A DNA stretch of 64,000 bases from a virus (IMGVR_UViG_3300046514_000687:1-64000); one strand, 5' to 3'. Positions 1-14,618 are shown, counted from the first letter of the stretch. Numbers and translations: made by a program. Notes: a model not told the origin generated them from the sequence alone.

Positions 1-3
1 CAG

Positions 4-747
4 ATGGCCAGCGAGCTGCAGGGCCACGATAGCCTCGCCAAGTACACCCGCCCGGACGGCACGCTGGAGCCCGCGCGCCAGGCCCTCCACGACGCGATCG
101 TCGCCCGCGCTCTCGTCGGCGTCCCCCGCCAGGCCCACCCCACCGCCTACCTCATCGGCGGCGGCGCCGCCGCGGGCAAGAGCACGATGCTGAACAGCGG
201 CGCGGTCACGGTCCCCGCGCGCGGGGCCGCCGTATACGTCGAGCCGGACGAGGTGAAGAACGACCTGCCGGAGTTTAAGGCCGGCCTCGCCAAGCGGGAC
301 CCGAACATCGCCGGCTACGTCCACGCGGAGTCCAGCAACATCGGCAAGCGCGTCCTGAGCGAGGCCATCGGCCGCCACACCGACCTGATCCACGACGCCA
401 TCCACAACACCTCGCTCGGCGCGGTCGAGCAGCGCGTCGCGCGCATGCGCGCCGCCGGCTACCGCGTCGAGGCCAGCTACGCGACCGTCCCGATCCAGAC
501 GGCCGTCGACCGCGCCCAGGCCCGCGGCGAGCGCACCGGCCGCTTCGTCCCGCTCGACGCCATCATGCAGGGCCACGCCGGCGTCGCCGCCATGTTCCCG
601 TCGCTGCTGAGCCACCACGTCTTCGACAAGGTGACGCTGCACGAGACCAGCGGCACGACGCCCCACCTGCTCGCCAGCCAGACCAACGGCCACACCGTCA
701 TCCACGACAGAGCCGGCTACGCGGCGTTCCTGGCGCGGAAGGGCTGA
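4..747 (+). CDS. Zeta-toxin-like P-loop kinase domain; probably the C-terminal part of a longer ORF truncated at the window edge
   Basis: Walker A GGGAAAGKST, then PDEVKxxLPE, VHxESS, GY.V, and RAxxRGERTGRFVP, the layout of zeta/PezT-like kinases. The frame is open to base 1. Confidence 0.75.
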   Translation: MASELQGHDSLAKYTRPDGTLEPARQALHDAIVARALVGVPRQAHPTAYLIGGGAAAGKSTMLNSGAVTVPARGAAVYVEPDEVKNDLPEFKAGLAKRDPNIAGYVHAESSNIGKRVLSEAIGRHTDLIHDAIHNTSLGAVEQRVARMRAAGYRVEASYATVPIQTAVDRAQARGERTGRFVPLDAIMQGHAGVAAMFPSLLSHHVFDKVTLHETSGTTPHLLASQTNGHTVIHDRAGYAAFLARKG

Positions 748-920
748 TGGACTACCCGTCGCTGCTCCGCATGTACCAGGCGCAGACGCTCGGCCTGACG
801 ATGGCTGAGGCGGGGTTCCCGAACACCCTGGAGAACCAGGCCCAGTGGGACCGCTGCGCCGCGCAGATCGCCGAGATCACCGCACGCGGTGGCGTCGTTG
901 AGCTGCCCCAGGACAGCTAG
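747..920 (+). CDS. Small 57-aa protein (MDYPSLLRMY...), candidate antitoxin for the upstream kinase
   Basis: Not in the ORF track; read by hand. Its ATG overlaps the kinase stop (TGATG at 745-749), TAG at 918-920. Function is inferred from position only. Confidence 0.5.
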   Translation: MDYPSLLRMYQAQTLGLTMAEAGFPNTLENQAQWDRCAAQIAEITARGGVVELPQDS

Positions 921-929
921 GAGGCGACT

Positions 930-1073
930 GTGCGGGGCTTCTGGCGCGTGGTCTGGTGCCACCTGGTCCACTCCTGGGACTGGCAGAATCCCCGATGGCG
1001 CGAGGACTACCAGGCGCTGCTCTACCGCTGCCCCTACTGCCGTTGTGAGCGGCAGGCGATGGTGTGGCGCTGA
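930..1073 (+). CDS. Small Cys/His-rich protein (47 aa; C..H.W...CPYC)
   Basis: GGAGG at 920-924, GTG start, and a TGA overlapping the next ATG (1071-1075). Confidence 0.5.
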   Translation: MRGFWRVVWCHLVHSWDWQNPRWREDYQALLYRCPYCRCERQAMVWR

Positions 1074-4000
1074 TGGCCGACCAGTATCTCTTTGACTTAA
1101 CAGTCGGCGGGTACATCGACCCCGCCGGTCGCCCCGTGCCCGTTACAGCGATCAACGCCGCCGCCAGCGAGGTGCAGAGCCGCGCCCGCGACGAGATGGC
1201 CGCCCTCACCAAGCGGCTCGTGGACGGCGACCTCACCCCCGCCCGCTGGGAGCGCCAGGCCAGCGCCATGCTGCGCGAGGCGCACCTCACCGCCACCGCC
1301 CTCGCCGTCGGCGGCTGGGCCCAGGTGCCCGCCTTCGAGGACGACCTGGTGGACCGGCTGACCGGCGAGTTCACCTACCTCGCCGGCTTCCGCACCGCGC
1401 TCCCTGATCTAACGGAAGGCCAGATCGCCGCCCGCGCCGACCTGTACGCCAGCAACGTCTGGGCGACCTACCAGCAGATGCGCGGCGCGCTGGCCGAGCA
1501 GACCGGCATGGACGAGGAGCGCAACGTGACCGACCCCGCGGCCGAGTCCTGCGCCGAGTGCGACGACCTGGAGGCTGACGACTGGGTACCACTGGACACA
1601 CTGCCCGAGGTCGGTGAGCGTGCCTGTCTCGCCCGCTGCCGGTGCACGATCGAGTACCGCGCCGCCGGCGTGGAGGAGAAGCGAGTGCTGGTCGGCGCGG
1701 GCGTGGCGCGGGCCTACAACCCGGACGAGCCGCGCCTCCCCGCCGGTGGTCCCGGCGGTGGGGAGTGGACGAGCGATGGCGGGAGCGACACGGGTGCGCC
1801 TGACTCTCTGGCCACACTCGCCTCAGCGCTCAGTCCGGCGAGCGCTGAGTCCTGGCTCCAACGCGACGCTCACGGCGGGCTGCGCCCCGTAGATGTGGGA
1901 GCCTTGGCGACTACACGGGAGAGCCGGGGCTTCATCGGCACGAGCGGCGCTGGCTACGAGATCACAAGTCAGGCAGTTCACAACCAGATCGGCCAGGAGC
2001 TTGCTGCGGCACACGGCTACCACGGCATAGAGTCGCCCATGACAACCGTGCTGGAGGCCGGCCACCTGATTCGCTACGTCTCGCTGCCCAAGCAGCACGA
2101 GCTGGGCGTCGAGCTGCACGCGCCGCCTTCCGACTCGCAGTGGAGTACGCTGCGGCGGTTTGCAACCAGCCTGCCAGACGCTCGCTTTTTGTTCGATGTT
2201 TACCCCCCTAAGGGAGCGCCCGACTATGCGGCGCGGTTCGGGATCGGAGAGGGGTTCGGCAAGCTGCGCGCCGCGGCAGAACGCGCCTACGGGCCGGTTA
2301 ATGGCGCAGCCCGCGGCCTCTTCCGCGCCTGGGATGAGGCGCAGCACCCCCGCGAGCCCGCCGGCACGAGCGCCGGCGGGGAGTTTGCGGGTGGAGAAGG
2401 TGGCGGCTTGCCTGCGACCGCTCCGGCGACCGGCGAGCGCGACATGGCTGCCAGCCGGTACATCGAGGCCGCCGTTCCGGTCGGGGATGTGGAAGACGAC
2501 ACTCAGACCGGCATCGTTCGGTATGCGGTCGCGCAGGAGCTAGCCTCTGACGTCTACGCTGCCGTGGGCGCCAAGGGGGCGTTCTCGGATCTCGCGGATG
2601 CGACGAAGTGGGTCGACGACCAGATTCGCACCTGGGAAGGCAGCAGTCGGGCAACGCGCATCCTTGGGTTGCACGAGGCGGTGCGCCAGAAGTTCGACCT
2701 GCCTGAGTCCACCATGCGCGGCGTAGCCGACCTCCCGCTTACGCCATCGCCGGAGCAGCGCGCTCTGGTCGATGCCATCTACCGGAATACTCAGGCCCAC
2801 CTCGCCGCGCTCGGGATCAAGGAGCTGACGCTCGTTCGGGGCGGGCTGGTGCAAGATGCGCTGCTACCGCCCGGCATCCGGCACGGCGGTCAGGGCGACC
2901 ACGTGGACGGCACCGCGCAGCTCGCTCCGCTGAACTCCTGGACGAGCCAGCCGCACTGGGCCGAGCGGTTCGCTAACGCCCACGGCCTCGCGCAGGCGCC
3001 GCAAGCCGGCCAACAGCGCACCGCCGTCGTCCTCCAGGCGCGCGTACCAGCAGCGCGCATCTTCAGCACCGGCCGCACCGGGCTCGGCGCTCTCGTTGCT
3101 CACGAGTACGTGGTTCTCGGCGGCCCAACTCCCACGCGCTTCCACGCTGAGGAGCTAAGCGGCGGGTTCCAGTATCGCGCAGCTCGGGCTACGGGGCTTG
3201 TGCCTGTGGATGCGGATCCGGAAAGCCTGGACTGGCTTCGCTGGGCAGTGGCCTACCAGGTGGCTCAGGAGCGCGCCTTCAACCCGGACCAGCCGCGCGA
3301 CGACCAGGGGCGCTGGACGACTAGCGACGACAATAGCCGCGTGAGCGACCTGGCGCCGCCCGGCGAGCCGCCGCCCCACACCGTCAGCAACGACGAGCTG
3401 CGGGGTCTGATCGACTGCGTCTCCGGGGAGTACGCCGACATTCGCCAGCAGGCCGAGCGCGACGACACGGACGCTTCCGCCCGCGAGTACCAGCGCCTCG
3501 GCGACTACCTCCACGCGCTCTACGCCGAGGCGAACCGGCGCGACTTGTTCAAGGCCTACAACCCTGACCAGCCCCGCGACGAGCACGGCCGGTGGACTGA
3601 TAGTGGTGGAACCGTAGTCCCTACGCGCGAGCCGAGCCAGGATGCTGCGGTGGAGGCAGCCCTGTTTGCAGGTGCGTCTACTTCTAGCACCGAGCTAGAA
3701 AAGATCGCTGCCGCGGCGATCGCTGCGCGCATCGAAGCCAACCCCGCTCACGACTCCGCGGCCTTCGACGCAATCTTCCAGAGCCCCTACGACTACGTGC
3801 GGTCGGTCGAGCATGCGTGGCAGCTCGACGCGCAGAGCGTCACGTCTATGCGGTTTGCGGAAGCCGTCGCTCACGCCCTGGATCTCCCGCCGGCGGCCGT
3901 GAGTGCGATGGGTAACCGGGCCGACGCGGGACGCAACGCCGTGCCGATGATGGAGGTGGCTCGCGCGACCTACGCGGAGACCCAGGCGCAGCTCGCCGCT

Positions 4001-7000
4001 GCGGGCCTCCCCAGCGTGGTCCTCTATCGCGGTGTGAACCACTACCACGATGAACTCCCCGCCGGGCTGAAACCCGGCGTGAGTGATAGCCACGCCGATG
4101 TGTCATTCACGGCCCGCCCTCTGACGTCCTGGAGTTCGGACCCCACCGCTGCCGAGCTGTTTGCCCTCCGCCAGCGCAGCTCCGACCGCACCGGCTATGT
4201 CCTGTCTGCACGCGTGCCCGCCAGCCGGATCTTCTCCACCGGGCGCAGCGGGTTTGGCGAGCGCATCGAGCGCGAGTTCCTGGTACTCGGCGGCTCCATG
4301 AAGGCTCGCGCGCACACAGCCCGGACGGCCGGGGGGCAGATTGATGTGACGCGCGCTGCCCCTCGTGAGCCCGTGCTAAACATCGACGCAGACCGCGAGA
4401 ATGCTGACTGGCTGCGCTGGGTCGCGCGTGTGCGCCAGGCGGCCCCCCGCGCCTTTAACCCCGTCGAGCTGGAGTGGGACCCCGCGCAGCACCCGCGTAT
4501 CCCCGCCGGCCAGCCCGGCGCGGGCGAGTTTATCGGCGGCACGGCCAGCGCGCCCGAGGACCCGGCCGCTCGCGCCTGGTACCAGCGCGGCCACGAGGGC
4601 CTGCCCACCCAGCCCGAGGTCAACCGGCTGGCGCGCGAGGTCAGCCGCGGTCTGCGCGCCCAGGTCCCCACCGGCCCCAAGCCGCTGGACCTGATGAACA
4701 TCTGGCACAGCGGCGCGCGCAGTGCCAAGTACCGCGACCTGCGCTCGGCCGTCCAGCAGGAGTTTCACTTGCCTGGCGACTGGGCCACCCACCGTGACCC
4801 CGCTCAGTACAAGCCGCTGGTCCGGGCGATCTACGCTGCTACGCAAAACCAGCTCGCCGCGGCCGGCATCAAGGACGTCACGCTCTACCGCGGCCTGCTG
4901 CTCGGCAACGACACGCTGCCGCCCGGCGTCGGCCCCGGCCGCTCCGGCGGCCACGCCGATACCGTCCACCAGGGGCGCCCGCTGGCCTCCTGGACCAGTA
5001 ACCCCGCCATCCCGCCGGGATTCGCTAAAACCCACCACAAGGACGGCATGACCGCGGTGATCCTCCAGGCGACCTTTCCCGCCAGCAAGGTGTTCAGCAC
5101 CGCCCACACCGGCATCGGCCTGCTGCGCAAAGAGGAGTTCGTTATCCTTGGCGGGCCCCAGCACGTCCGTCTGCATACCCAGGATGCGCGCGGGCGCTGG
5201 GACCTGTATAAGAGCCTGATAGACCACAGTGCGGACGTGGAGAATGACGCCTGGCTCCACGAGGACGACCCCGAGCCGTTGCTGGTCGAGGATCCCGACG
5301 GCACCGTCCACCCCGTTGCTACCCCCGCAGAGCTGGCCGCGGCGCTGGCGGGGATGGGCCTGACGCTCGCGGAGTTCCTCCAGACGCCCGCCGCAGCAGC
5401 GATGCCTGCCAGCCTGCGACCCGCACCGGGTAAAGCGGTCAAGTACTCGCCCGACCAGCCCCGCGACGAACACGGGCGGTTTGCCACAGGTAGTAGCGGC
5501 GATGGCGAAGCCACCAAGCCCAAGCACGACCCGCCGGTGATCGGCGCCGGCCGCGACGCCACCACGCGCCCCGACCCCGAGTACGACCGCCTCCACGCCG
5601 ACCTGCTCCGCCACACCAGCGGCCACCGCATGGACGGCGCGCGCATCGCCACGACGCAGTGGCTGGAGAAACAGCGCGCTGCGGCCGGGATCCCGGACAA
5701 GGGCCAGAAGGTCGCGCTGTGGGGGCTTGCCTGGAACCAGCTCCCCTCAGTAGCCGTCGCACTGGCTCGCTTCTACCAGCAGTACCCTCTAGTTGCGGCC
5801 GACCTGAAGACGGTAGATATCCTGCCCAACCGTCAGTTCCAGGGCGGCACCAAGCAGGTGGTGGCCCATGCCTGGCCCGACGGCCCCGTCAGCCACCTAG
5901 AGGGCAACGGGCTGCGGATGGCACAAGTCGACGACCACTCGCGCGTCCGCAACGGCTGGTTCCCCGAGGGCACGGACAAGGTGCAGGGCATCCTCTGGCA
6001 CGAGCTGGGGCACGTCCTGAACCACCACCTGGACCGCGTAATGGCGACCCGTCCGTTCAACGACCGTGCCGCGGAGGACTGGCGCGACTTCCAGAAGCAC
6101 GAGATGAGCAGCGACCGCCTGTCGCAGTACTCGGTGTCCAAGACCGACCCGAAAGCGAAGTGGCGCGAGGGGTTCGCGGAGTCTTTCGCCCAGTACAACC
6201 TAGCATCTACCGACAAGTGGACCGCCCCGACCTTTAAACTCGCGGCCCTCCTGGAGCATTCCTGGGTCGCGCCGCTGGTCGGCCACCGCAGCAAGAGCGT
6301 GGGCTGGTTCTTCACTCGCGAGTGGGACGAGGCGCAACACCCGCGCGAGCCGGCCGGTAGCCCTCAAGGGGGCGAGTTCGCCGGCGGCGCTGAAGCCGCA
6401 GCCGCTCTCCTCGCTCAGCGCAAGCCCGACCCCTCTGCGCTCCGGGAGACTATCGCCGCAGCCGACGCGGCGGCTGCCGCTGCAGCCGCCCTGAACGGCC
6501 AGTCCGTCGACGACTACAAAGCCTCGGTCGAGGCCAACCTGCGCCGCCTGTATGATGAAGCTGAGATCCACATCCTCCTGCGCGCCGACCGCGTCGGCAA
6601 GCTGCTCAGCGACGGTGAGCTGAAGACCGCCTTCGAGGTGTCTCGCCTGCGGAAGCAGGACGAGAACTACATGGCGTCGCGCAGCCAGATCGAGCAAACC
6701 ATGTTCGGCCTGCCCGCCGATACTCCCGTGGATAACCGCCCAATCTACGGGTCGCTCGCCACCCCCGGCGTCGGGCCGGACATTATCGAGCACGACAGCT
6801 ACGGCGGCACGACGCTGGAGCTGAAGCCTTCCGTCAAGGACCGCGCCACCGCGCTGTGGGGCGACAGCTTCGAGCGCAAGCAGGCTACCGCTGACGGCTC
6901 GGGCTGGTATGCGGCCTCGCCGGCCCCGGTACACGACCCGAAGTGGTACTCGGCGGGCACCTACGCGCGTATTCCGGACGTCGGCGCCGCGGCTGACCCC

Positions 7001-7426
7001 GCGCGCCTGGACACCGTGTCTAACATGAAGGGCGCGGCCTACATCGAGACGCAGATCCACGGCGACGCAGCCCACCCTGCCGTGTCCGTTAGCGATATTG
7101 CCCGCGTCGTCTTCGATAAGCCGCCCTCGGCCAGTGCGGTCAGGGCGCTGGATAAGCTGGGCATCGCCCACGCCTCCTACCAGTTCGAGGCCGAGCCATA
7201 CCCGCCGCACACCGGCCGGCCAGCGGCGCAGGAGTTCGGCCGCCTCCGCGACGCCTACGCCTACCACGGACGCGAGCTGACTATGCTGGCGAAGTTCGGC
7301 GAGCACTACGAGCACTGGACCGGCGACCCGAAGTGGAAGGAGAAGTCCATGAAGTGGCGTGATGACATGCGCCGCTGGCAGGGGGTGACCGAGGCCAGCT
7401 TTGCCAAGTGGGGAGAGCCGCTCTGA
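1073..7426 (+). CDS. MuF-like minor head polyprotein 1: MuF-like domain, unknown domain, ART, small helical domain, ART, ART, HExxH metallopeptidase, DUF3626-like domain
   Basis: The N-terminal domain ends in SCAEC...LP..G.R.CLARCRC, the MuF-type Cys signature. Seven linker repeats, three L[YV]RG...SW[TS]...xxE.VLGG motif sets, WHELGH...EGFAES, and RPIYG...YG...GDS...YIETQIHG. Start placed at the TGATG overlap. Confidence 0.8.
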   Translation: MADQYLFDLTVGGYIDPAGRPVPVTAINAAASEVQSRARDEMAALTKRLVDGDLTPARWERQASAMLREAHLTATALAVGGWAQVPAFEDDLVDRLTGEFTYLAGFRTALPDLTEGQIAARADLYASNVWATYQQMRGALAEQTGMDEERNVTDPAAESCAECDDLEADDWVPLDTLPEVGERACLARCRCTIEYRAAGVEEKRVLVGAGVARAYNPDEPRLPAGGPGGGEWTSDGGSDTGAPDSLATLASALSPASAESWLQRDAHGGLRPVDVGALATTRESRGFIGTSGAGYEITSQAVHNQIGQELAAAHGYHGIESPMTTVLEAGHLIRYVSLPKQHELGVELHAPPSDSQWSTLRRFATSLPDARFLFDVYPPKGAPDYAARFGIGEGFGKLRAAAERAYGPVNGAARGLFRAWDEAQHPREPAGTSAGGEFAGGEGGGLPATAPATGERDMAASRYIEAAVPVGDVEDDTQTGIVRYAVAQELASDVYAAVGAKGAFSDLADATKWVDDQIRTWEGSSRATRILGLHEAVRQKFDLPESTMRGVADLPLTPSPEQRALVDAIYRNTQAHLAALGIKELTLVRGGLVQDALLPPGIRHGGQGDHVDGTAQLAPLNSWTSQPHWAERFANAHGLAQAPQAGQQRTAVVLQARVPAARIFSTGRTGLGALVAHEYVVLGGPTPTRFHAEELSGGFQYRAARATGLVPVDADPESLDWLRWAVAYQVAQERAFNPDQPRDDQGRWTTSDDNSRVSDLAPPGEPPPHTVSNDELRGLIDCVSGEYADIRQQAERDDTDASAREYQRLGDYLHALYAEANRRDLFKAYNPDQPRDEHGRWTDSGGTVVPTREPSQDAAVEAALFAGASTSSTELEKIAAAAIAARIEANPAHDSAAFDAIFQSPYDYVRSVEHAWQLDAQSVTSMRFAEAVAHALDLPPAAVSAMGNRADAGRNAVPMMEVARATYAETQAQLAAAGLPSVVLYRGVNHYHDELPAGLKPGVSDSHADVSFTARPLTSWSSDPTAAELFALRQRSSDRTGYVLSARVPASRIFSTGRSGFGERIEREFLVLGGSMKARAHTARTAGGQIDVTRAAPREPVLNIDADRENADWLRWVARVRQAAPRAFNPVELEWDPAQHPRIPAGQPGAGEFIGGTASAPEDPAARAWYQRGHEGLPTQPEVNRLAREVSRGLRAQVPTGPKPLDLMNIWHSGARSAKYRDLRSAVQQEFHLPGDWATHRDPAQYKPLVRAIYAATQNQLAAAGIKDVTLYRGLLLGNDTLPPGVGPGRSGGHADTVHQGRPLASWTSNPAIPPGFAKTHHKDGMTAVILQATFPASKVFSTAHTGIGLLRKEEFVILGGPQHVRLHTQDARGRWDLYKSLIDHSADVENDAWLHEDDPEPLLVEDPDGTVHPVATPAELAAALAGMGLTLAEFLQTPAAAAMPASLRPAPGKAVKYSPDQPRDEHGRFATGSSGDGEATKPKHDPPVIGAGRDATTRPDPEYDRLHADLLRHTSGHRMDGARIATTQWLEKQRAAAGIPDKGQKVALWGLAWNQLPSVAVALARFYQQYPLVAADLKTVDILPNRQFQGGTKQVVAHAWPDGPVSHLEGNGLRMAQVDDHSRVRNGWFPEGTDKVQGILWHELGHVLNHHLDRVMATRPFNDRAAEDWRDFQKHEMSSDRLSQYSVSKTDPKAKWREGFAESFAQYNLASTDKWTAPTFKLAALLEHSWVAPLVGHRSKSVGWFFTREWDEAQHPREPAGSPQGGEFAGGAEAAAALLAQRKPDPSALRETIAAADAAAAAAAALNGQSVDDYKASVEANLRRLYDEAEIHILLRADRVGKLLSDGELKTAFEVSRLRKQDENYMASRSQIEQTMFGLPADTPVDNRPIYGSLATPGVGPDIIEHDSYGGTTLELKPSVKDRATALWGDSFERKQATADGSGWYAASPAPVHDPKWYSAGTYARIPDVGAAADPARLDTVSNMKGAAYIETQIHGDAAHPAVSVSDIARVVFDKPPSASAVRALDKLGIAHASYQFEAEPYPPHTGRPAAQEFGRLRDAYAYHGRELTMLAKFGEHYEHWTGDPKWKEKSMKWRDDMRRWQGVTEASFAKWGEPL

Positions 7427-9528
7427 TGGTGGCCGTGATCGGGCGCCACGGCGAGGAGGCGCTGCTGATTAGCCTGGAGGACGCGCCGCCCGGCGAGGAC
7501 CACGGCTTCGTGGTATACCCGGCGAAGTTCCGCGCCGGCCCCGTCGTTGGCGTCAGCAGCATTCTTGCGCGCGACCCCGACTGGGAGTGGGTGGATCCGC
7601 CGGACCACGCCGCGGCTCAGGAGCTGCTGGCAGTCCTGCCGCACCCGCCAGTCGCGCCGGCCGCTGAGAAGGCCGTCACCCGCTACAGCCCGGACCAGCC
7701 CCGCGAGCCCGCCGGCTCGCCTGAGGGCGGCCAGTTCGCCGGCGACGTGGGCGGGGCGGGTGGTAGTGCGGCTGACCACCCGCAAGGGCCTACTATTCCA
7801 GAGGCCGGCACCGCTAACGTGGCGGTCAGCCAGCAGGTCACGAGCGAGGACTGGAACGAGGATCCCCGCGAGTACGAGGCCGAGCGCCTAGACCGCCTGC
7901 GCTGGATGTTCGCCGAATCTGGCCTGGAGAACCCCGACCGTGCCGAGACGGTGAGCCAGAACGTTAAGGACATGTGGCACCACGACCACCTAGCGCAACT
8001 CACCTCAGACTTTCGCGCCGCCGCGGCTGCGGAGTTCGGCCTGCCCGGCGCCAAGGAGACGGTCGAGCAGTTCCACAGCGAGTACTGGACGGAGCTGAAG
8101 GCTACCGCGCGCGGGATCTACGACGAGACGCAGCGCCAGCTCCTCAACAACCACGGCGACCTCAGCCACCTGACCCTCTTCCGCGGCATGCAGGTGCCGG
8201 ATGCAGCTGTACCTACCAGCCTGCGCGGGAGCGACGTACACGCCAACGCCACGCTCCAGCTCAAGCCGCTGGACTCCTGGACGACTGACCCCGCGGTGGC
8301 CCATCGCTTCGCTACCGGCACCGACGTCAGTACCGGCATCCGTCCCGGCCACACCGGAGTAGTCCTGCAGGCTCGCTTCCCCATCCAGCGTATCCTGGGG
8401 TGGGACAAAACCGGGATCGGCTTCGGCGGGGAGGCTGAGGTGGTCGTGCTCGGCGGCCCCGCTCATGTGCGGGTGCACCGGACGACCAGCGGGGGCACGG
8501 TAGACGTTACGAAGGCCGCGCCGCTCGACCTGGGCGAGTTCGGCTGGGAGCGCCACAACGACAACTGGCTCTGCACCAACACCGCACTCCAGCGCGCCCT
8601 GCCCGGCTTTGTCCGCGCCTGGGACGAAGAGCAGCACCCCCGCGAGCCGGCGGGGACCTCAGCCGGTGGCGAGTTTGCCAGCGGCGCGGGTGGCAGTTAC
8701 GAGGGCTACCCGGACGGGCCGCGGGACAGCTTCCTGCCGATCAATACTATCGCTACAGCGATGGAGTCAGCTGACCCGTCGCTGTCACCCGGCGATGCCG
8801 TCCAGGCGGCCCAGGACGTGATGCATCGCTGGAACGCTAACCCCAAGGACCCCGCATCCATGCTCTTGATGCTGCAAGCCGCCGAGGTCTTTGGGCTGAC
8901 TGATGCTGAGCCTACGCCGCACAAGCTTCCAATCCCCGAGATTGCCGATCTGCTCATTGCTCCGGTCACCGCGGCCGGTCTGAAGGCGGTGCTGAAGCCG
9001 ATGTACGACGCCACGCAGGCGCACCTGGCGAAGCGCGGGATCGCCGGGGGCACCCTGTATCGCGGCATGATCCTGCCCAGCGCCACGGTCCGGGCGATGG
9101 AGGCCGCGGGCGGGACGCTCCGGCAGCGCGCTCTTTCCTCCTGGACGAGCGACGCTTCCGTCGCTCGCGAGTATGCGGATCCGAAGTATCACCACAACAC
9201 GGACCCGGACATGGTCCCGGTGATCGTGAGTGCCCACGTACCCGCGTCTCGCGTCCTTTCCTCGCCGCAGACGGGTTTCGGCTATGACATGTCAGCCGAG
9301 ATCGTAGTTCTGGGAGGGCCCATTCCCGTGCACGTCCACCGCGTTACGCCCGCCAAAACCGCCGCCTCGGACGGAGCCGCCGCCCGGCCCGTGATCGTCG
9401 AGGACGACCGCGCCGCCGAGTGGCTTCACGCGATGCGCGACCGCCCCCCGGTGCGCTCGTTTACTCGCGAGTGGGACGAGAGCCAGCATCCGCGCGTCCC
9501 CGCCGGCAGCCCCGAGGGCGGGGAGTTT
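1709..9528 (+). repeat. Ten dispersed protein-level linker repeats of two types: [KR]-A/Y-(Y/F)NPDQPR..GR[WF] and R-[AE]-WDE.QHPR.PAG...GGEF
   Basis: Copies begin near 1709, 2324, 3272, 3551, 4448, 5432, 6311, 7669, 8611 and 9451. Confidence 0.9.
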
Positions 9529-10455
9529 GGTGGAGGGGAGGGTAGTCCCCAGGCTGCTGCCGTGCCCTACCAGGGACCGGAACCCCCGTACAGCGAGCGC
9601 ACTGACCCGATCCTGTGGAACCCCGACGGCGGCGAGCCGCTCTACGCCGGCGATATGCGAAGCTGGGGCGAGGCTAACTACGAGCGCCTGGCCGACGAGC
9701 TGCAGAAGGACCCGACGATGCCGTTCGACCCGCCCGGCGGCAAGGAGACCGCGCGCGGGATGTTCCGCAGCTACGCGACAGGCTGGAACGGGGGCGGCGC
9801 CGGCCACGCCGAGCTGATGGCCGTTGCGACGGAGTTCGGCCTTTCGACCGCGGACGTATATCCTGACCCGTTCCACCAAACCTTTGACCCCGCCACGAAA
9901 CCGTGGGACCGGGCACGGATGGCCTGGGCGCGCGCCACCTACGACGCTACTCAGGCAGACTTCAAGGCGCAGGGTCTGAAGGAAGTCACGCTCTATCGGG
10001 GGACTGCCATGATGCCTGACAAGCTCCCCCCCGGCGTGCACGAGAGCCGGGCGCCCGCGAATGCCGACGTGCAGATGCAGCCCCTATCATCCTGGACCAG
10101 CAACCCGCAGGAAGCACGCAGGTTCGCCATCAAGAGTCGCGGCGGCGACCCGACTCCGGTGGTTCTCGCGGCGCGCTTCCCCGTCTCGCGGATCTTCTCG
10201 ACGGTACGCACCGGACCCGGCACCTTCCCCGAGCGCGAGTACGTCGTGCTTCGGGGGAAGACGACCGCGCGTCTGCACGTCGACGTGGAGCACCTAGACC
10301 GCGCCATCACCGGAGGCCCCCTGCCCGTCGTGACCGTAGACGCGACCCGCGAGGACATGAACTGGCTGCACTGGCTATACGGCCGCCCCGCGCCGGTGCC
10401 GCCCTTCGAGCCAGACCGCCCGAATGGTACGATGGACGGAGGAGGCGCCCGATGA
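7426..10455 (+). CDS. Polyprotein 2: ~80-aa N-terminal domain plus three linker-delimited ART modules
   Basis: ATG overlaps the previous TGA (7424-7428). Three linker repeats and three R-S-E motif sets: LFRG/DSWT/EAE, LYRG/SSWT/SAE, LYRG/SSWT/ERE. Confidence 0.8.
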   Translation: MVAVIGRHGEEALLISLEDAPPGEDHGFVVYPAKFRAGPVVGVSSILARDPDWEWVDPPDHAAAQELLAVLPHPPVAPAAEKAVTRYSPDQPREPAGSPEGGQFAGDVGGAGGSAADHPQGPTIPEAGTANVAVSQQVTSEDWNEDPREYEAERLDRLRWMFAESGLENPDRAETVSQNVKDMWHHDHLAQLTSDFRAAAAAEFGLPGAKETVEQFHSEYWTELKATARGIYDETQRQLLNNHGDLSHLTLFRGMQVPDAAVPTSLRGSDVHANATLQLKPLDSWTTDPAVAHRFATGTDVSTGIRPGHTGVVLQARFPIQRILGWDKTGIGFGGEAEVVVLGGPAHVRVHRTTSGGTVDVTKAAPLDLGEFGWERHNDNWLCTNTALQRALPGFVRAWDEEQHPREPAGTSAGGEFASGAGGSYEGYPDGPRDSFLPINTIATAMESADPSLSPGDAVQAAQDVMHRWNANPKDPASMLLMLQAAEVFGLTDAEPTPHKLPIPEIADLLIAPVTAAGLKAVLKPMYDATQAHLAKRGIAGGTLYRGMILPSATVRAMEAAGGTLRQRALSSWTSDASVAREYADPKYHHNTDPDMVPVIVSAHVPASRVLSSPQTGFGYDMSAEIVVLGGPIPVHVHRVTPAKTAASDGAAARPVIVEDDRAAEWLHAMRDRPPVRSFTREWDESQHPRVPAGSPEGGEFGGGEGSPQAAAVPYQGPEPPYSERTDPILWNPDGGEPLYAGDMRSWGEANYERLADELQKDPTMPFDPPGGKETARGMFRSYATGWNGGGAGHAELMAVATEFGLSTADVYPDPFHQTFDPATKPWDRARMAWARATYDATQADFKAQGLKEVTLYRGTAMMPDKLPPGVHESRAPANADVQMQPLSSWTSNPQEARRFAIKSRGGDPTPVVLAARFPVSRIFSTVRTGPGTFPEREYVVLRGKTTARLHVDVEHLDRAITGGPLPVVTVDATREDMNWLHWLYGRPAPVPPFEPDRPNGTMDGGGAR

Positions 10456-10703
10456 CGCAGTACGTCTGTCCCATCTGCTACGGCTGCACGCGCTTCCGCG
10501 ACGTGCCGGCCGGCCAGGACCGGCTCTGCTGCACGGCCTACCCCGCCGGCATCCCCGAGGCCATTCTGTTCAGCCAGGCGGACCACCGCCAGCCCTACGC
10601 CGGCGACGGTGGCCAGCAGTTCGACCCCGCTGATGCCGCCGGCGCCGCCTACGCCGAGACGGTCTTTAACCCCGAGCCGGTGAACGTAGACGCGCCGCCG
10701 TGA
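10452..10703 (+). CDS. Small Cys-rich protein (CxxC...C.AYP.GIP..I.....DH..P..GD.G..F), putative immunity protein
   Basis: ATGA overlap with the last ART, a strong GGAGGAGG RBS, and a TGGTACGAT extended -10 just upstream. The immunity role is inferred. Confidence 0.6.
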   Translation: MTQYVCPICYGCTRFRDVPAGQDRLCCTAYPAGIPEAILFSQADHRQPYAGDGGQQFDPADAAGAAYAETVFNPEPVNVDAPP

Positions 10704-10981
10704 GTGCGGCCGGCGCGCTGGAGTGGATCGGCTACCTCACCGTCAGCCGCGTCTGCGAGGCCGGCCGCCCGGTCCTCCGCTACGAGTGGCGCGGCGGGCC
10801 GCAGATCCTGGTGGACCTGGAGCTGTTCACGAAGATGGAGCCCGGCTTCTGGACCGGCCACGTCCCGCCCCACCTTCGGGAGCGCGCCAGGCTGGGACCG
10901 TTCGCGGTGCGGGTGGTCGGCTACGACGCGGGCTGCGACTGGTACGTGCTGATGCGCGAGGACGGCGATGAGCCAGCCTGA
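10700..10981 (+). CDS. Hypothetical protein
   Basis: GTGA overlap with the previous stop; plausible amino-acid composition. Confidence 0.5.
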   Translation: MSAAGALEWIGYLTVSRVCEAGRPVLRYEWRGGPQILVDLELFTKMEPGFWTGHVPPHLRERARLGPFAVRVVGYDAGCDWYVLMREDGDEPA

Positions 10982-11397: not shown

Positions 11398-11443
11398 GCC
11401 CACACCCGAGTCTTCGTGACTCGCGGGAGTGGGCTTTTTCTTT
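11398..11443 (+). terminator. Hairpin plus U-tract in the leader of the protease gene
   Basis: GCCCAC..CCCGAGTC-TTCGT-GACTCGCGGG.GTGGGC followed by TTTTTCTTT. Confidence 0.5.
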
Positions 11444-11454
11444 GGAGGGACGCC

Positions 11455-13386
11455 ATGCCCGTCGGCACGAGCCGCCGATCTACGCCGTACACCTCCCTCG
11501 CGGAGTGGCGCACGCTCGCCATCGCCGGGAAGGCGAACCCCGACACCGTCCTCCGCAAGGCCTACACCTGCGACAAGATCAGCACCGTCGACGCGGACAA
11601 GCGCCAGAAGCAGTTCACCATCTCCACCGCCAGCGTGGACCGCGAGGGCGACACTGTCGCCCCCGAGGGCTGGGTCCTCAACGACTATGAGCGGAACCCC
11701 GTCGTCCTCTGGGCCCACGACGGCGAGGCGCCCCCCATCGGGCAGACCATCCGCATGGGCGTGGACCAGGGCCGCAAGCTCGTGAGCGTCGCCCAGTTCG
11801 CCCCGCCCGAGGTCTACGCTTTCGCAGACACCATCTACCGCCTGATCGACGGCGGCTACATCCGCGCCGCTAGCGTGGGGTTCCTGCCTATCGAGTTCCA
11901 CTTCGACAATACCCGCCAGTCGGCGAGCGGCTTCCAGCCGCCCTGCAACTTCGTCCGGCAGAGCCTGCTGGAGTGGTCGGTCTGCCCGGTGCCGGCCAAC
12001 CCCGACTGCCTCCTCCAGGCCCGCAGCGCCGGTATCGACCTGGAGCCGCTGCTGGGTTGGGCCGAGCGCATCCTGGAGGAGGGCCACGGCGAGCCGGGCC
12101 TGTGGATCAGCCGCGGTCAGGCGGAGGCGGTCCACCGGCTGCTCGGCACTACCCACCTCTCCCTGCCGAGCTGGGATGCCGCGTGCCCCGCCGGCGGGGC
12201 GTCTGCTGACCCGTTTCGCCTGGACACCCTCACGGTAGACGGCGAGCCGGTGCTGGACCTCGTCGAGCGCGCGGCCAAGCCGAAGCCGGATCCCGAGGAC
12301 GCGCAGGAGCCGCCCGAGACACCTGGCGAGGCGCCGGACGCGGAGGATCAGGCCGAGGGCCCGGAGCCGACCGACGAGGAGGATCCCCGCAAGCCGAAGC
12401 CGAAGGCGGCGGAACGGGCCGCCGCAGACCCCGGCGACGAGGCGATCGAGAAGGACGCGGTGCTGCGCCCGTACCCGAACGAGCACGCCTGCCGCCTCGC
12501 CGACCCCGGCCAGTTCGACAAGTTCCGCCGCGGCACGCGCGACCACGACGGCAAGCGCTACAGCGTCATCTACGCCCGGCCCAAGAGCGGCGACGGCGGC
12601 TGGCAGGAGCAGGCGTACCGCTACGCGACGGGCACCTGGGACGCCAAGGCTGCTCGCGCCCACTGCGACAGCCACGACGGCAGCTTCGAGGCCGCCAAGA
12701 CGGCGAACGCCGAGGCCCCCGTCACGAAGGGCGACGCGCCCCCGGTCGAGGACCCCGCTCAGGTCCCCGACTCGCTGGAGCAGCTGGCGGACTTCATGGC
12801 CGCTGACACACCCCTGGCGGACGCGGACGAGCCGGCTGCTCCAGTCACGCGCGCGACGGCCTACCCCGGCGAGCCGGGAGAGCCGACGGACCCCGAGGAT
12901 ACGGCGGAGGGGCCCGAGACGCCCGGCACCGACCCGGAGGACGCGGCCGAGACCCACGCCCGCAAGGCGCTGGTGACGGCGCAGACCGCCGCCACCCACC
13001 TCCAGAAGGCCGTCGCCGGCATGCGCCAGAAGGCCGCCGCGGGGCTCGACCCCAGCCACCACCTGCACATCGCCAAGGGCCTGATGGACCTGGCCGCCGC
13101 GCATGCGGGCATGGCACACGGCGCGATCAACTGTGCCTGCGGGGCGCCGATGGGCCGCCCCTTCCAGGCCGCCACCGACCCGCCCGTCACGCGCGCCGAA
13201 GAGCCCCCGCCGGAGCGGCGAGTCGTGCTCGTCGACCACACCCCCGAGCCGCCGCCGGCCGCCGCGCCTGACGACGAGGACGTGCTCGCGGACATCGCGC
13301 CCGAGGAGCTGCGCGCCATGGTTCAGGCTGGCGTACAGGCCAGCATCGAGGCTCGCCAGCGGCAAGCCGCCGGCCGAGTGGATTAG
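11455..13386 (+). CDS. HK97-family prohead maturation protease with a long acidic/Pro-rich C-terminal extension
   Basis: STASVDREGD, NPVVLWAH, PIG, ASVGF, LLEWSVCPVPANP. GGAGG precedes the ATG at 11455, and the gene lies directly upstream of the capsid gene. Confidence 0.92.
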   Translation: MPVGTSRRSTPYTSLAEWRTLAIAGKANPDTVLRKAYTCDKISTVDADKRQKQFTISTASVDREGDTVAPEGWVLNDYERNPVVLWAHDGEAPPIGQTIRMGVDQGRKLVSVAQFAPPEVYAFADTIYRLIDGGYIRAASVGFLPIEFHFDNTRQSASGFQPPCNFVRQSLLEWSVCPVPANPDCLLQARSAGIDLEPLLGWAERILEEGHGEPGLWISRGQAEAVHRLLGTTHLSLPSWDAACPAGGASADPFRLDTLTVDGEPVLDLVERAAKPKPDPEDAQEPPETPGEAPDAEDQAEGPEPTDEEDPRKPKPKAAERAAADPGDEAIEKDAVLRPYPNEHACRLADPGQFDKFRRGTRDHDGKRYSVIYARPKSGDGGWQEQAYRYATGTWDAKAARAHCDSHDGSFEAAKTANAEAPVTKGDAPPVEDPAQVPDSLEQLADFMAADTPLADADEPAAPVTRATAYPGEPGEPTDPEDTAEGPETPGTDPEDAAETHARKALVTAQTAATHLQKAVAGMRQKAAAGLDPSHHLHIAKGLMDLAAAHAGMAHGAINCACGAPMGRPFQAATDPPVTRAEEPPPERRVVLVDHTPEPPPAAAPDDEDVLADIAPEELRAMVQAGVQASIEARQRQAAGRVD

Positions 13387-13397
13387 CGGGAGGACGC

Positions 13398-14618
13398 ATG
13401 AACAAGGCCGAGCTGGCTGAGCTGATCCGCGACGTCTGCGGCAAGGTCGTGGAGGAGAAGTGGCAGACGATCGTGTCTGCCGATGCCGTCGGAAACGTGA
13501 CCCGCTACGGGCCGCCGCTGCTGGGCGCGGTGATCGACGAGACCCAGCCCTACTCCCAGGCGATCCAGCGCGTCAGCGCCAGCGAGCAGCGCGGCCTGCG
13601 CGCCGGCCGCCTGATTCGCTGCCTGGCCGCGGCGCGCGGCATCCCCGGCCTCGCCGCGGGGCACGCCCGCAAGGCCTTCCAGGACGAGGCGATGGCCAAG
13701 GCCCTGGAGGCCGGCGACGCGGTCGGCGGCGGCTTCCTGGTCCCGCCTGACTACTCCAGCGACATCATCGAGCTGCTGCGCCCCGTGGCGCGCGTCCGCG
13801 CCGCCGGGCCGACCCTGCTGCCGATGCCGGTCGGCACCGTTAGCATCCCGAAGGTCACCAGCGCCAGCACCGCGACCTACACCGGCGAGGGCCAGAACAT
13901 CCCGATCAGCCAGCCCGGCTTCGGGATGGTCACGCTCACCTGGCGCAAGCTGACCGCGATGGTGCCGATCAGCAACGACCTGATCCGCTTCGCGACCCCG
14001 AACGCCGACGCCTTCGTCCGCGACGACCTGGTCCGGGCGCTGGCGCTGCGCGAGGACCTCGCCTTCCTGCGCGGCGACGGCACCCAGTACACGCCCAAGG
14101 GCTTCCTGCACTGGGCACCCGCGGCGACCAACCTCCTGCCGGCCAACGCCACGATCAGCCTCACCAACGTGACGATCGACCTCGGCTCCATGCTGAACGT
14201 GATGGACGAGGCGAACATCCAGATGGTGCGGCCCGCCTGGTTCATGGCGCCGCGCACCAAGACCTTCCTGATGACCCAGCGCGACGGCCTGGGCAACTTC
14301 GCCTGGCGCACCGAGATGGCCGCCGGCACGCTGATGGGGTTCCCGTTCTACACCACGACGCAGATCCCGACGAACCTCGGCGTCGGCTCCAACGAGTCGG
14401 AGCTGTACCTGGCCGAGATGACGATGGCCGTCCTCGGCGAGTCCGAGCGGCTGCTCATCGACGCCAGCACCGAGGCGGCCTACTGGGACGGCACCCAGCT
14501 CCAGTCCACCTACTCGCGCGACCAGACCGCCATTCGCGCCATCGCCGAGCACGACTTCGCGATGCGCCACGACCAGGCCATCGTGGTCCTGCAGGCCGTC
14601 AAGTGGGGCGCCCCGTAA
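13398..14618 (+). CDS. HK97-fold major capsid protein
   Basis: KAL...GGFLVP....IIELLR, GEG, KL..MVPISN.LI, GDGT..PKG, LMGFP; 406 aa. Confidence 0.93.
   Translation: MNKAELAELIRDVCGKVVEEKWQTIVSADAVGNVTRYGPPLLGAVIDETQPYSQAIQRVSASEQRGLRAGRLIRCLAAARGIPGLAAGHARKAFQDEAMAKALEAGDAVGGGFLVPPDYSSDIIELLRPVARVRAAGPTLLPMPVGTVSIPKVTSASTATYTGEGQNIPISQPGFGMVTLTWRKLTAMVPISNDLIRFATPNADAFVRDDLVRALALREDLAFLRGDGTQYTPKGFLHWAPAATNLLPANATISLTNVTIDLGSMLNVMDEANIQMVRPAWFMAPRTKTFLMTQRDGLGNFAWRTEMAAGTLMGFPFYTTTQIPTNLGVGSNESELYLAEMTMAVLGESERLLIDASTEAAYWDGTQLQSTYSRDQTAIRAIAEHDFAMRHDQAIVVLQAVKWGAP

What the first reader, a model, noticed from the sequence alone, without database searches (positions are those of the whole stretch)
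1073..10455. Linker-delimited effector array: two tandem head polyproteins carrying ten modules next to the HK97 prohead protease
Seen: every module starts with one of two related motifs, ([KR]A(Y/F)NPDQPR..GRW or R[AE]WDE.QHPR.PAG...GGEF; 10 copies), always directly after a Lys/Arg. Cargo includes 6 ART domains, an HExxH metallopeptidase, a DUF3626-like domain and two unknown domains, behind a MuF-like N-terminus. Known: MuF-fused polymorphic toxins and phage polyvalent proteins exist, HK97 protease cleaves after Lys, and T4 internal proteins carry a targeting peptide removed by the prohead protease. Inference: the polyproteins are packaged in the capsid and cut into individual effectors that all begin with the same tag, which may serve packaging or ejection. 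Polyprotein 2 has no MuF domain, so the tag alone may be enough for loading.
Basis: partly seen in the sequence, partly recalled or inferred. Interest (0 to 1): 0.92.

Follow-up and report, generated by a model that had tools for sequence, protein, structure and literature searches.

The report
Tagged effector arrays in phage head
Three neighbouring head genes of a 111-kb high-GC phage string 14 enzyme and other add-on modules (half of them ADP-ribosyltransferases) behind the portal and a head protein, and 13 of them start with the same ~20-residue peptide, which also heads thousands of capsid-cargo modules in other phages and which I could not find described in the literature.

Summary
The motif occurs 10 times in the two ORFs (2,000 shuffles: mean 0.016). 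Three more copies sit in the portal gene, which wraps around the record end. It occurs nowhere else in the genome.

The two motif types are one peptide: basic residue, aromatic, [NDS]-P-x-Q-(H)-P-R-x3-G…[FW]. A short helix often precedes it and a Gly-rich spacer follows.

A profile of the 13 copies finds 3,898 protein clusters in 1.84 billion. The top hits carry 3-14 copies each, next to ART, Zeta-toxin, portal, MuF, Acb1 and topoisomerase domains. The genes lie in head modules with HK97-type capsid and S78 protease.

The peptide is a header, not a tail. It is often N-terminal and rarely C-terminal, and a domain-sized module follows it. Orthologous modules move between portal and MuF-position carriers with breakpoints at the tag.

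AlphaFold puts both tags flanking one ART module outside its folded core.

Cleavage by the prohead protease, and loading by the tag alone, remain untested inferences. The architecture itself is the known phage polyvalent protein. No paper I could search describes the tag.

This scan has already noted the same tag on other genomes (e1-5352191, e1-3066955, e1-5328300).

The parts
1..747 (+). End of the portal polyprotein (~1,559 aa). It starts near genome position 106946 and runs across the record end. The part in the window is the Zeta-toxin module. Upstream, outside the window, lie the portal domain, a 2H phosphoesterase, a small unknown module and one ART, with three header tags.
   Evidence: Pfam Zeta_toxin E 1.2e-24. 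Circular join and motif scan. PHROG portal E 6.8e-61. TIGR02258 2H E 9e-6.
747..1073 (+). Two small ORFs (747-920, 57 aa; 931-1073, 47 aa, Cys/His-rich). TGATG stop/start overlaps chain them to the genes on either side.
   Evidence: Read from the sequence. Function not tested.
1073..7426 (+). Polyprotein 1 (P0001). It has an N-terminal ~210-aa head-protein domain in the MuF position, followed by seven header-tagged modules: unknown, ART1, a 67-aa helical module, ART2, ART3, an HExxH zincin-like module and a DUF3626-like module.
1697..1798 (+). Header tag 1 (RAYNPDEPR…GGEW)
   Evidence: 48 bits.
2312..2413 (+). Header tag 2 (RAWDEAQHPR…GGEF)
3260..3361 (+). Header tag 3 (RAFNPDQPR..GRW)
3539..3640 (+). 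Header tag 4 (KAYNPDQPR..GRW)
4457..4558 (+). Header tag 5, a double copy (RAFNP… then EWDPAQHPR…AGEF)
5426..5527 (+). Header tag 6 (KYSPDQPR..GRF)
6305..6406 (+). Header tag 7 (REWDEAQHPR…GGEF)
7426..10455 (+). Polyprotein 2 (P0002). An ~85-aa N-terminal segment is followed by three header-tagged ARTs (ART4-6). The protein ends in a decayed header.
   Evidence: (the database copy P0028 starts at Met7).
7666..7767 (+). Header tag 8, the hybrid form (RYSPDQPREPAG..GGQF)
8602..8703 (+). Header tag 9 (RAWDEEQHPR…GGEF)
   Evidence: Lies in a pLDDT<50 stretch of the model, after a predicted helix.
9454..9555 (+). Header tag 10 (REWDESQHPR…GGEF)
10390..10455 (+). Decayed header at the C-terminus of P0002 (…NWLHW…PPFEPDRPNG… then stop)
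   Evidence: Aligns with the next-module headers of the other ARTs.
11416..13386 (+). Prohead protease (S78/HK97 type, residues ~45-210) with a long C-terminal extension.
   Evidence: PHROG head maturation protease E 4.9e-10 and 2e-7. TIGR01543 E 4.4e-5, below the cut-off. Asp, His and Ser invariant in 29 sequences.
13398..14618 (+). HK97-type major capsid protein with a ~100-aa delta region. The inferred maturation site is …AMAK|ALEAG….
   Evidence: Pfam PF05065 E 3.8e-46. Alignment with real HK97 gp5 K103|S104.

Best explanation
These are phage-type polyvalent proteins. Three translationally coupled head genes are involved: a portal fusion, a gene in the MuF position, and a third gene without a recognisable carrier. 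Together they place 14 add-on modules inside the capsid: 7 ARTs, a Zeta toxin, a 2H phosphoesterase, a zincin-like peptidase, a DUF3626-like domain and three unknown modules. They would be delivered to the next host with the DNA.

Every module except the 2H domain, which follows a Pro-rich spacer, is preceded by a conserved header. The header is an often helical leader, then [KR]-x0-1-[FYW]-[NDS]-P-x-Q-(H)-P-R-x3-G…[FW], then a Gly-rich spacer.

The header is a widespread label of capsid-interior cargo in phages with an HK97-type capsid and an S78 protease.

Most likely mechanism (inferred, not shown): the header is the element that the head-assembly machinery recognises. The prohead protease would cut at or near it, with a basic residue at P1, and so free the modules from portal, head protein and each other inside the prohead. 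In stand-alone cargo genes the leader plus header would also give the address for loading, as the capsid targeting sequence does in T4.

Shown here: the array, the header's position, its breadth, its head-module context, selection on the peptide, and module shuffling at the tag.

Inferred: encapsidation, cleavage, the cut position and delivery.
For: Occurrence. There are 13 copies confined to three consecutive head genes. The count is far above chance.

One peptide. The two motif types are bridged by a hybrid form.

Selection acts on the peptide, not the DNA. Copies with identical residues differ at synonymous sites, including an AGC/TCA serine switch.

Breadth. The profile finds 3,898 clusters at E<=1e-3 and 398 at E<=1e-10. 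The top 150 proteins carry 716 copies.

Header position.
- The first tag is within 30 residues of the N-terminus in 56 of 146 proteins. The last tag is within 100 residues of the C-terminus in only 6 of 146.
- Median spacing is 256 aa, and 10 of 490 spacings are below 120 aa.
- 153 complete viral ORFs show the same picture.

Module unit.
- The same ART occurs as a stand-alone gene that starts with leader plus tag and ends right after the ART core.
- In relative P0006, modules 70-80% identical to ours sit at other positions. One is on the MuF-position protein there and on the portal here. The alignment ends fall at the tags.

Carriers. The tag directly follows portal, MuF-position and S78 protease domains. 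All three carriers face the capsid interior; for these carriers loading is already assured. That favours a release or processing role.

Context.
- Neighbouring ORFs match Phage_capsid PF05065 (11), portal (8), S78 plus S78_2 (7) and terminases.
- 22 of 28 loci with such a capsid gene also hold an S78-like protease.
- In bacterial genomes 112 of 120 pattern loci are confirmed by the HMM.

Protease and cut site. The protease keeps the His/Ser dyad. HK97 K103|S104 aligns with K|A in this capsid protein and in 24 of 28 capsid proteins of tag-bearing loci. In this phage 9 of 13 tags contain [KR]-A-hydrophobic, like the K-A-L of the capsid site.

Structure. Both tags flanking ART4 lie in stretches with pLDDT below 50, outside the folded core.
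Against: There is no direct evidence that these proteins are in virions or that they are cut.

The conserved stretch (~20 residues) is much longer than a usual cleavage site.

In most other phages the tag reads K-[YF]-[DSN]-P. That does not resemble their capsid site K|A-L-S.

The best-kept residues are P-R…G, not the upstream Lys (51%). The cut, if any, could equally lie after Arg.

Tags only a few residues from the N-terminus need no cut to separate modules.

The association with HK97/S78 heads could be a lineage effect.

The AlphaFold alignment was shallow (12 rows), so low pLDDT does not prove disorder.
Confidence: 0.45

Rival explanations
1. The header is an uncut loading or anchoring peptide. 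It binds a component of the prohead interior (capsid delta region, scaffold-like part of the protease protein, or portal) and tethers each module, as cargo-loading peptides do in encapsulins. Release, if any, happens otherwise.
For: The conserved stretch has the length of a docking peptide. It is kept across phages with GC from 0.38 to 0.74. Stand-alone tag-headed genes and P0002 have no other recognisable address. Shells are HK97-fold.
Against: Tags also precede modules already fused to portal, protease or the MuF-position protein, where a loading signal is redundant. Cargo tethered to the portal could not leave with the DNA unless it were cut. One tag per module would give multivalent binding with no obvious use.
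Confidence: 0.2
2. The header acts after release, in ejection or in the new host. It would be an N-terminal signal for threading unfolded modules through the portal and tail channel, or a site that recruits a conserved host factor such as a chaperone to pull in or refold each module.
For: The header sits at the N-terminus of every module and is predicted to be unstructured, with a Gly-rich spacer. The modules are of many unrelated folds, so only a fold-independent step is shared. From memory, not tested: the Y-x-P-x-Q-P-R-x-P core recalls proline-rich peptides that bind DnaK or the ribosome.
Against: No data bear on it. The hosts are very diverse, so the partner would have to be universal. The tight link to one capsid/protease type fits an assembly role better.
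Confidence: 0.1
3. The tag is a passive joint. It would be a flexible linker kept mainly because it lets modules recombine between genes and phages, like the conserved pre-toxin motifs of polymorphic toxins, with no recognition partner.
For: Orthologous modules change place and carrier, with breakpoints at the tags. Arrays vary from 1 to 14 copies. Split and fused forms coexist.
Against: Copies within this genome share at most short identical DNA stretches and differ at synonymous sites, so the peptide is under selection, not the DNA. A passive linker would not keep P-R and G at more than 90% and Q at 74% across thousands of clusters. It would also not head proteins at their extreme N-terminus.
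Confidence: 0.1
4. The polyproteins are cut at the tags by their own zincin-like metallopeptidase module. This is the processing route that Iyer et al. 2017 proposed for polyvalent proteins.
For: P0001 carries an HExxH module whose nearest Atlas clusters are ATLF/M90-like. PMC5512222 proposes autoprocessing by such domains.
Against: Only 2 of 42 tag-array proteins scanned have an ATLF-type domain. P0002, the portal polyprotein and the many single-tag genes have none. So it cannot be the general partner of the tag.
Confidence: 0.05

Closest known systems
Phage-type polyvalent proteins (Iyer, Burroughs, Anand, de Souza, Aravind 2017, PMC5512222; also PMC9503650)
   Same: Giant multidomain proteins encoded with head genes. 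Effector domains (ART, 2H, zincin peptidase, P-loop kinase-like toxins) are fused to portal, MuF or the capsid-processing serine peptidase and are predicted to be packaged and injected.
   Different: Those papers contain no 'linker' or 'spacer' wording and no such motif. They propose processing by zincin peptidases. Here a specific conserved header delimits every module, and the array spans three genes with seven paralogous ARTs.
MuF polymorphic toxins of temperate phages (Jamet et al. 2017, PMC5576092)
   Same: A head protein in the MuF position carries C-terminal toxin domains. Modules are exchangeable.
   Different: The N-terminus here does not match PF04233. There are many modules rather than one. 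That paper mentions no linker or cleavage.
T4 capsid targeting sequence of internal proteins and Alt (reviews PMC9026906, PMC3012670)
   Same: A short N-terminal peptide on proteins carried in the head. It is removed by the prohead protease, and the cargo includes an ART injected with the DNA.
   Different: The sequence is unrelated. The protease family and specificity differ: T4 gp21 cuts after Glu in L/I-x-E (my own knowledge), whereas an S78 enzyme is present here. The T4 signal is not known to recur inside polyproteins.
Encapsulin cargo-loading peptides
   Same: A short conserved peptide on a flexible linker directs diverse enzymes into an HK97-fold shell.
   Different: Those peptides are terminal, single and uncut (my own knowledge). 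The sequence is unrelated. Binding was not tested here.
Pre-toxin junction motifs of polymorphic toxins (for example VENN in CdiA; Zhang et al. 2012, PMC3482391)
   Same: A conserved short motif marks the border where variable toxin modules are swapped.
   Different: Those motifs mark one C-terminal toxin on a secreted protein. Here the motif repeats before every module of capsid-internal proteins.

Membership tests
Phage-type polyvalent proteins (Iyer et al. 2017) | Several (2-15) unrelated effector domains in one polypeptide | tested here: met
   P0001 has 7 modules, P0002 has 3 and the portal protein has 4.
Phage-type polyvalent proteins (Iyer et al. 2017) | Encoded among head or packaging genes, or fused to a virion domain (portal, MuF) | tested here: met
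   Portal fusion. The genes lie between the portal and the protease and capsid genes.
Phage-type polyvalent proteins (Iyer et al. 2017) | Packaged in the virion and delivered on infection | not testable with these tools
   Needs virion proteomics.
MuF / SPP1 gp7 minor head proteins (PF04233) and MuF toxins | N-terminal domain matches the MuF family | tested here: inconclusive
   Pfam and NCBIfam give no hit at E<=1. The PHROG match is phrog_24776, 'unknown function'. An Atlas Mu_F cluster scores only 0.94 with 167 shared features. The Foldseek BFVD match 'minor capsid protein' has probability 0.85 and E 0.13. Only the gene position and a C..C…CRC motif fit.
MuF / SPP1 gp7 minor head proteins (PF04233) and MuF toxins | Cognate immunity gene next to the toxin | not tested
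   Small ORFs at 747-1073 and 10452-10981 have no informative family.
R-S-E ADP-ribosyltransferases | Arg, Ser-x-Ser and catalytic Glu motifs in order | tested here: met
   The (L/F)xRG, SW(T/S)S and E-x-V-x-L-G blocks are kept in all 7 paralogues.
R-S-E ADP-ribosyltransferases | ART fold or family match | tested here: met
   Pfam DRAT 33 bits against a cut-off of 25 on P0002. Foldseek top matches are Vis toxin (probability 0.96), ExoS, ART2.2 and SpvB. The model core has pLDDT 70-90.
HK97-type prohead protease (S78) | Family match and catalytic His and Ser | tested here: met
   PHROG head maturation protease. TIGR01543 E 4.4e-5, below the cut-off. His62 and Ser114 of the aligned domain are invariant in 29 sequences.
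HK97-type prohead protease (S78) | Cuts the capsid protein, and here the tags, after Lys | not testable with these tools
   Only the alignment of K|A with HK97 K103|S104 is available.
T4-type capsid targeting sequence | N-terminal peptide that is sufficient for loading and is removed by the prohead protease | not testable with these tools
   Header position is shown. Function is not.
Zeta toxin (PF06414) | Family match above the cut-off | tested here: met
   87 bits against a cut-off of 22.3.

The most novel reading that the evidence does not exclude
The leader-plus-tag header is a universal, portable address and release label for proteins carried inside HK97-type phage heads. It would be necessary and sufficient to load a foreign protein into the prohead and to have it cut free by the S78 protease. 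Its presence would then mark, genome-wide, the set of proteins a phage injects, including anti-defence enzymes such as Acb1 and 2H phosphoesterases.
Probability: 0.3. Interest if true: 0.85.

Novelty: new variant of a known kind. Interest (0 to 1): 0.68.

Why it matters
Which proteins a phage injects with its DNA is hard to learn from sequence alone. A short label that heads cargo modules in thousands of phage protein clusters would change that. It would let injected effectors and counter-defence enzymes be listed directly from genomes.

It would also explain how huge portal- and head-protein fusions can release their cargo. And it would offer a handle for loading chosen proteins into HK97-type capsids.

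This window is an extreme and clean case for testing it: 13 tags, three carriers, seven paralogous ARTs, and the protease and capsid genes next door.

Tried and rejected
Tools that gave nothing:
- Complex prediction of the protease domain (alignment A5) with the header (A6) returned no answer: scores 0.20 and 0.18 against a mark of 0.32, and no controls were run. This is evidence neither way.

Searches in cultured phages:
- tblastn of 34- and 49-residue tag pieces against cultured phages found nothing at E<=1 and E<=10. This search is too insensitive for so short a peptide, so it says nothing about absence.
- tblastn of P0002 found only weak ART matches.
- P0014 hits in Pseudomonas phage H66 gp60 and Mycobacterium phage Smeagan gp3 are to modules without the tag.

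Ideas checked and dropped:
- Does the 'PNEHACRL' domain of the protease protein co-occur with tags? There were 0 hits in 120 loci.
- Is 'RKAF' in the capsid protein, or 'RKAY' in the protease, a tag-like cleavage site? RKAF belongs to the common K-x-AF-x-x-Y-V-R-x-G delta-region motif upstream of the real site.
- Could a programmed frameshift join P0001 and P0002? There is no slippery site, only a TGATG overlap.

Literature. Searches for the motif strings and for cleavage or targeting of MuF and polyvalent proteins found no description.

One caution on my own analysis: the iterative portal search drifted (17 to 104 hits). Only the strict phmmer result was used.


Full report
**What is there**

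The window is the first 64 kb of a single 111,030-bp contig of about 70% G+C. Its last 152 nt repeat its first 152 nt with one mismatch. The record is therefore circular or terminally redundant.

Two large ORFs lie at 1064-7426 (P0001, 2120 aa) and 7408-10455 (P0002, 1015 aa). The ORF open at the window start (1-747) is a Zeta-toxin domain. Joined across the record end, it is the tail of a ~1,559-aa protein. That protein begins with a portal domain (PHROG E 6.8e-61). It continues with a Pro-rich spacer, a 2H phosphoesterase, a small unknown module and an ART.

TGATG stop/start overlaps chain the portal gene, two small ORFs, P0001 and P0002. Downstream come an S78/HK97-type prohead protease with a long C-terminal extension, an HK97-type capsid protein and a head-tail adaptor.

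**The observation**

The motif core occurs 10 times in P0001 and P0002 and three more times in the portal protein. It occurs nowhere else in six frames of the genome. Shuffled sequences give 0.016 copies on average.

The two motif types align as one peptide, bridged by a hybrid copy. Copies with identical residues differ at synonymous sites, including AGC versus TCA for serine. Selection therefore acts on the peptide and not on the DNA.

Every copy has Lys or Arg one or two residues before the aromatic residue.

The seven ART modules are paralogues with the R, S-W-T-S and E blocks kept. Evidence that they are ARTs:
- A Pfam DRAT match above the cut-off on P0002.
- A model whose folded core matches the Vis toxin, ExoS, ART2.2 and SpvB.

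The HExxH module is nearest to ATLF/M90-like clusters. DUF3626 is a weak match. The N-terminal 212 residues of P0001 match no MuF model. Only the gene position and a Cys-rich motif recall MuF.

**How general is it?**

A profile of the 13 copies was scored against 1.84 billion representative proteins. It gave 3,898 hits at E<=1e-3 and 398 at E<=1e-10. The best are proteins of 1,000-4,000 aa with 3-14 copies each.

In the top 150 proteins I located 716 copies. The consensus is a hydrophobic residue, then K-[YF]-[DSN]-P-x-Q-P-R-[D]-[PED]-x-G. It ends either in R-W or in x-P-x-G-G-[QE]-[WF].

Forty-two of these proteins carry ADPrib_exo_Tox, ART-PolyVal, Zeta_toxin, PARP, portal, Mu_F, DUF3626, Acb1, topoisomerase IB, histidine phosphatase, GNAT and ATLF domains. 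No conjugation family is among the 25 families listed.

Of these, 111 were confirmed by the profile, with G+C from 0.38 to 0.74. It also hit more than 120 bacterial genome contigs, of which 112 were confirmed.

A random sample of 150 neighbouring ORFs matched Phage_capsid PF05065 (11), terminase, Phage_portal (8), Peptidase_S78 (4) plus S78_2 (3), and Mu_F (3). Of 28 loci with such a capsid gene, 22 also hold an S78-like protease within the short stretch fetched.

**The tag is a header**

In the 146 top proteins:
- The first tag lies within 30 residues of the N-terminus in 56.
- The last tag lies within 100 residues of the C-terminus in only 6.
- Tags are a median of 256 residues apart, and 10 of 490 spacings are below 120.

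An independent set of 153 complete viral ORFs behaves the same way.

In other phages the same ART is a separate gene of about 320-340 codons. It begins with a leader plus tag and stops right after the ART core. So the acidic Trp-containing helix that follows each ART here belongs to the next header, not to the ART.

P0002 ends in a decayed header, as if a further module had been lost.

In relative P0006, modules 70-80% identical to ours sit at other positions. One lies on the MuF-position protein there and on the portal protein here. The alignments start and end at tags.

Elsewhere the tag directly follows portal domains and S78 protease domains. One 1,381-aa protein reads tag, module, tag, module, protease, coiled coil, capsid protein.

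**Structure**

An AlphaFold model of P0002 residues 60-440 used a 12-row alignment. It folds only residues 151-359 with confidence. Both tags lie in stretches with pLDDT below 50, and the second is preceded by a predicted helix. The alignment is shallow and the other tags were not modelled.

**Mechanism**

Tags precede modules even on carriers that are built into the head anyway. A pure loading signal therefore does not explain them. Cargo on the portal must be cut free if it is to leave with the DNA.

The protease keeps its His/Ser dyad. HK97 gp5, read from NC_002167, has K103|S104. This aligns with K|A in this capsid protein and in 24 of 28 capsid proteins of tag-bearing loci. That HK97 is cut there is established knowledge. 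A basic P1 residue is thus plausible, and 9 of the 13 local tags contain [KR]-A-hydrophobic, like the local capsid site.

Several points count against a simple cleavage site:
- The tag is about 20 residues long.
- Its general form (K-[YF]-x-P) differs from K|A-L-S.
- Its best-kept residues are P-R…G.
- Many tags sit at the very N-terminus.

I therefore favour (0.45) a combined recognition and processing header, by analogy with the T4 capsid targeting sequence. The cut position is left open. The rivals are an uncut anchor (0.2), an ejection or refolding signal (0.1), a passive recombination joint (0.1) and self-processing by the zincin module (0.05). That module is present in only 2 of 42 arrays.

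**Comparison and novelty**

The architecture is that of phage polyvalent proteins and of portal-, MuF- and peptidase-fused effectors (PMC5512222, PMC9503650). Those papers and the MuF-toxin paper (PMC5576092) contain no linker, spacer or cleavage-motif description. String and keyword searches of the held library found none either. I cannot exclude a description in papers outside that library.

Earlier follow-ups of this scan reached the same reading on other genomes. I re-derived it here independently.

The case is a new variant of a known kind. The tag is the new part, and this phage is an unusually rich example.

Noticed in passing
window 745-1075 and 7424-7428: Portal polyprotein, a 57-aa ORF (747-920), a 47-aa Cys/His-rich ORF (931-1073), P0001 and P0002 are chained by TGATG stop/start overlaps. 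The two small ORFs directly follow the Zeta-toxin module and could be antitoxin or immunity genes.
   Followed up: partly
window 10390-10455: P0002 ends in a degenerate copy of the helix-plus-tag header (…NWLHW…FEPDRPNG…stop). This suggests that a downstream module was lost.
   Followed up: partly
genome ends (window 1-152 = genome 110879-111030): The record ends overlap by 152 nt with one mismatch (Arg/Ser in the Zeta module). This is either terminal redundancy or an assembly overlap of a circular contig. The portal gene runs across it.
   Followed up: yes
P0159 (JGI metagenome protein, 1381 aa): A single polypeptide reads tag, module, tag, module, S78 protease, coiled coil, HK97 capsid protein. 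Cargo is fused to the capsid protein's own precursor.
   Followed up: partly
L097:10272-11972, L102:1-1002, L026:759-2666; L072:2887-4596, L010:5498-7507, L056:9136-11151: In other phages the tag sits directly after the S78 protease domain (first three loci) or directly after the portal domain (last three).
   Followed up: partly
window 12430-12680 (P0004 residues ~340-420): The protease protein carries a compact domain with a P-N-E-H-A-C-R-L motif between acidic, Pro-rich stretches. No family was found, and it does not co-occur with tags in 120 viral loci.
   Followed up: partly
L119:4217-6049 and L092:4422-6269: Tag-headed stand-alone cargo genes carry a PI3/PI4-kinase-like domain (Pfam E 3.7e-8 and 2.1e-10). 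They lie in runs of five consecutive tag-bearing genes.
   Followed up: no
window 3341-3541: A 67-aa helical module lies between two tags. Its only hit is a noise-level match to the Tsi2 antitoxin family (E 0.022). It may be a small inhibitor or adaptor carried in the array.
   Followed up: no
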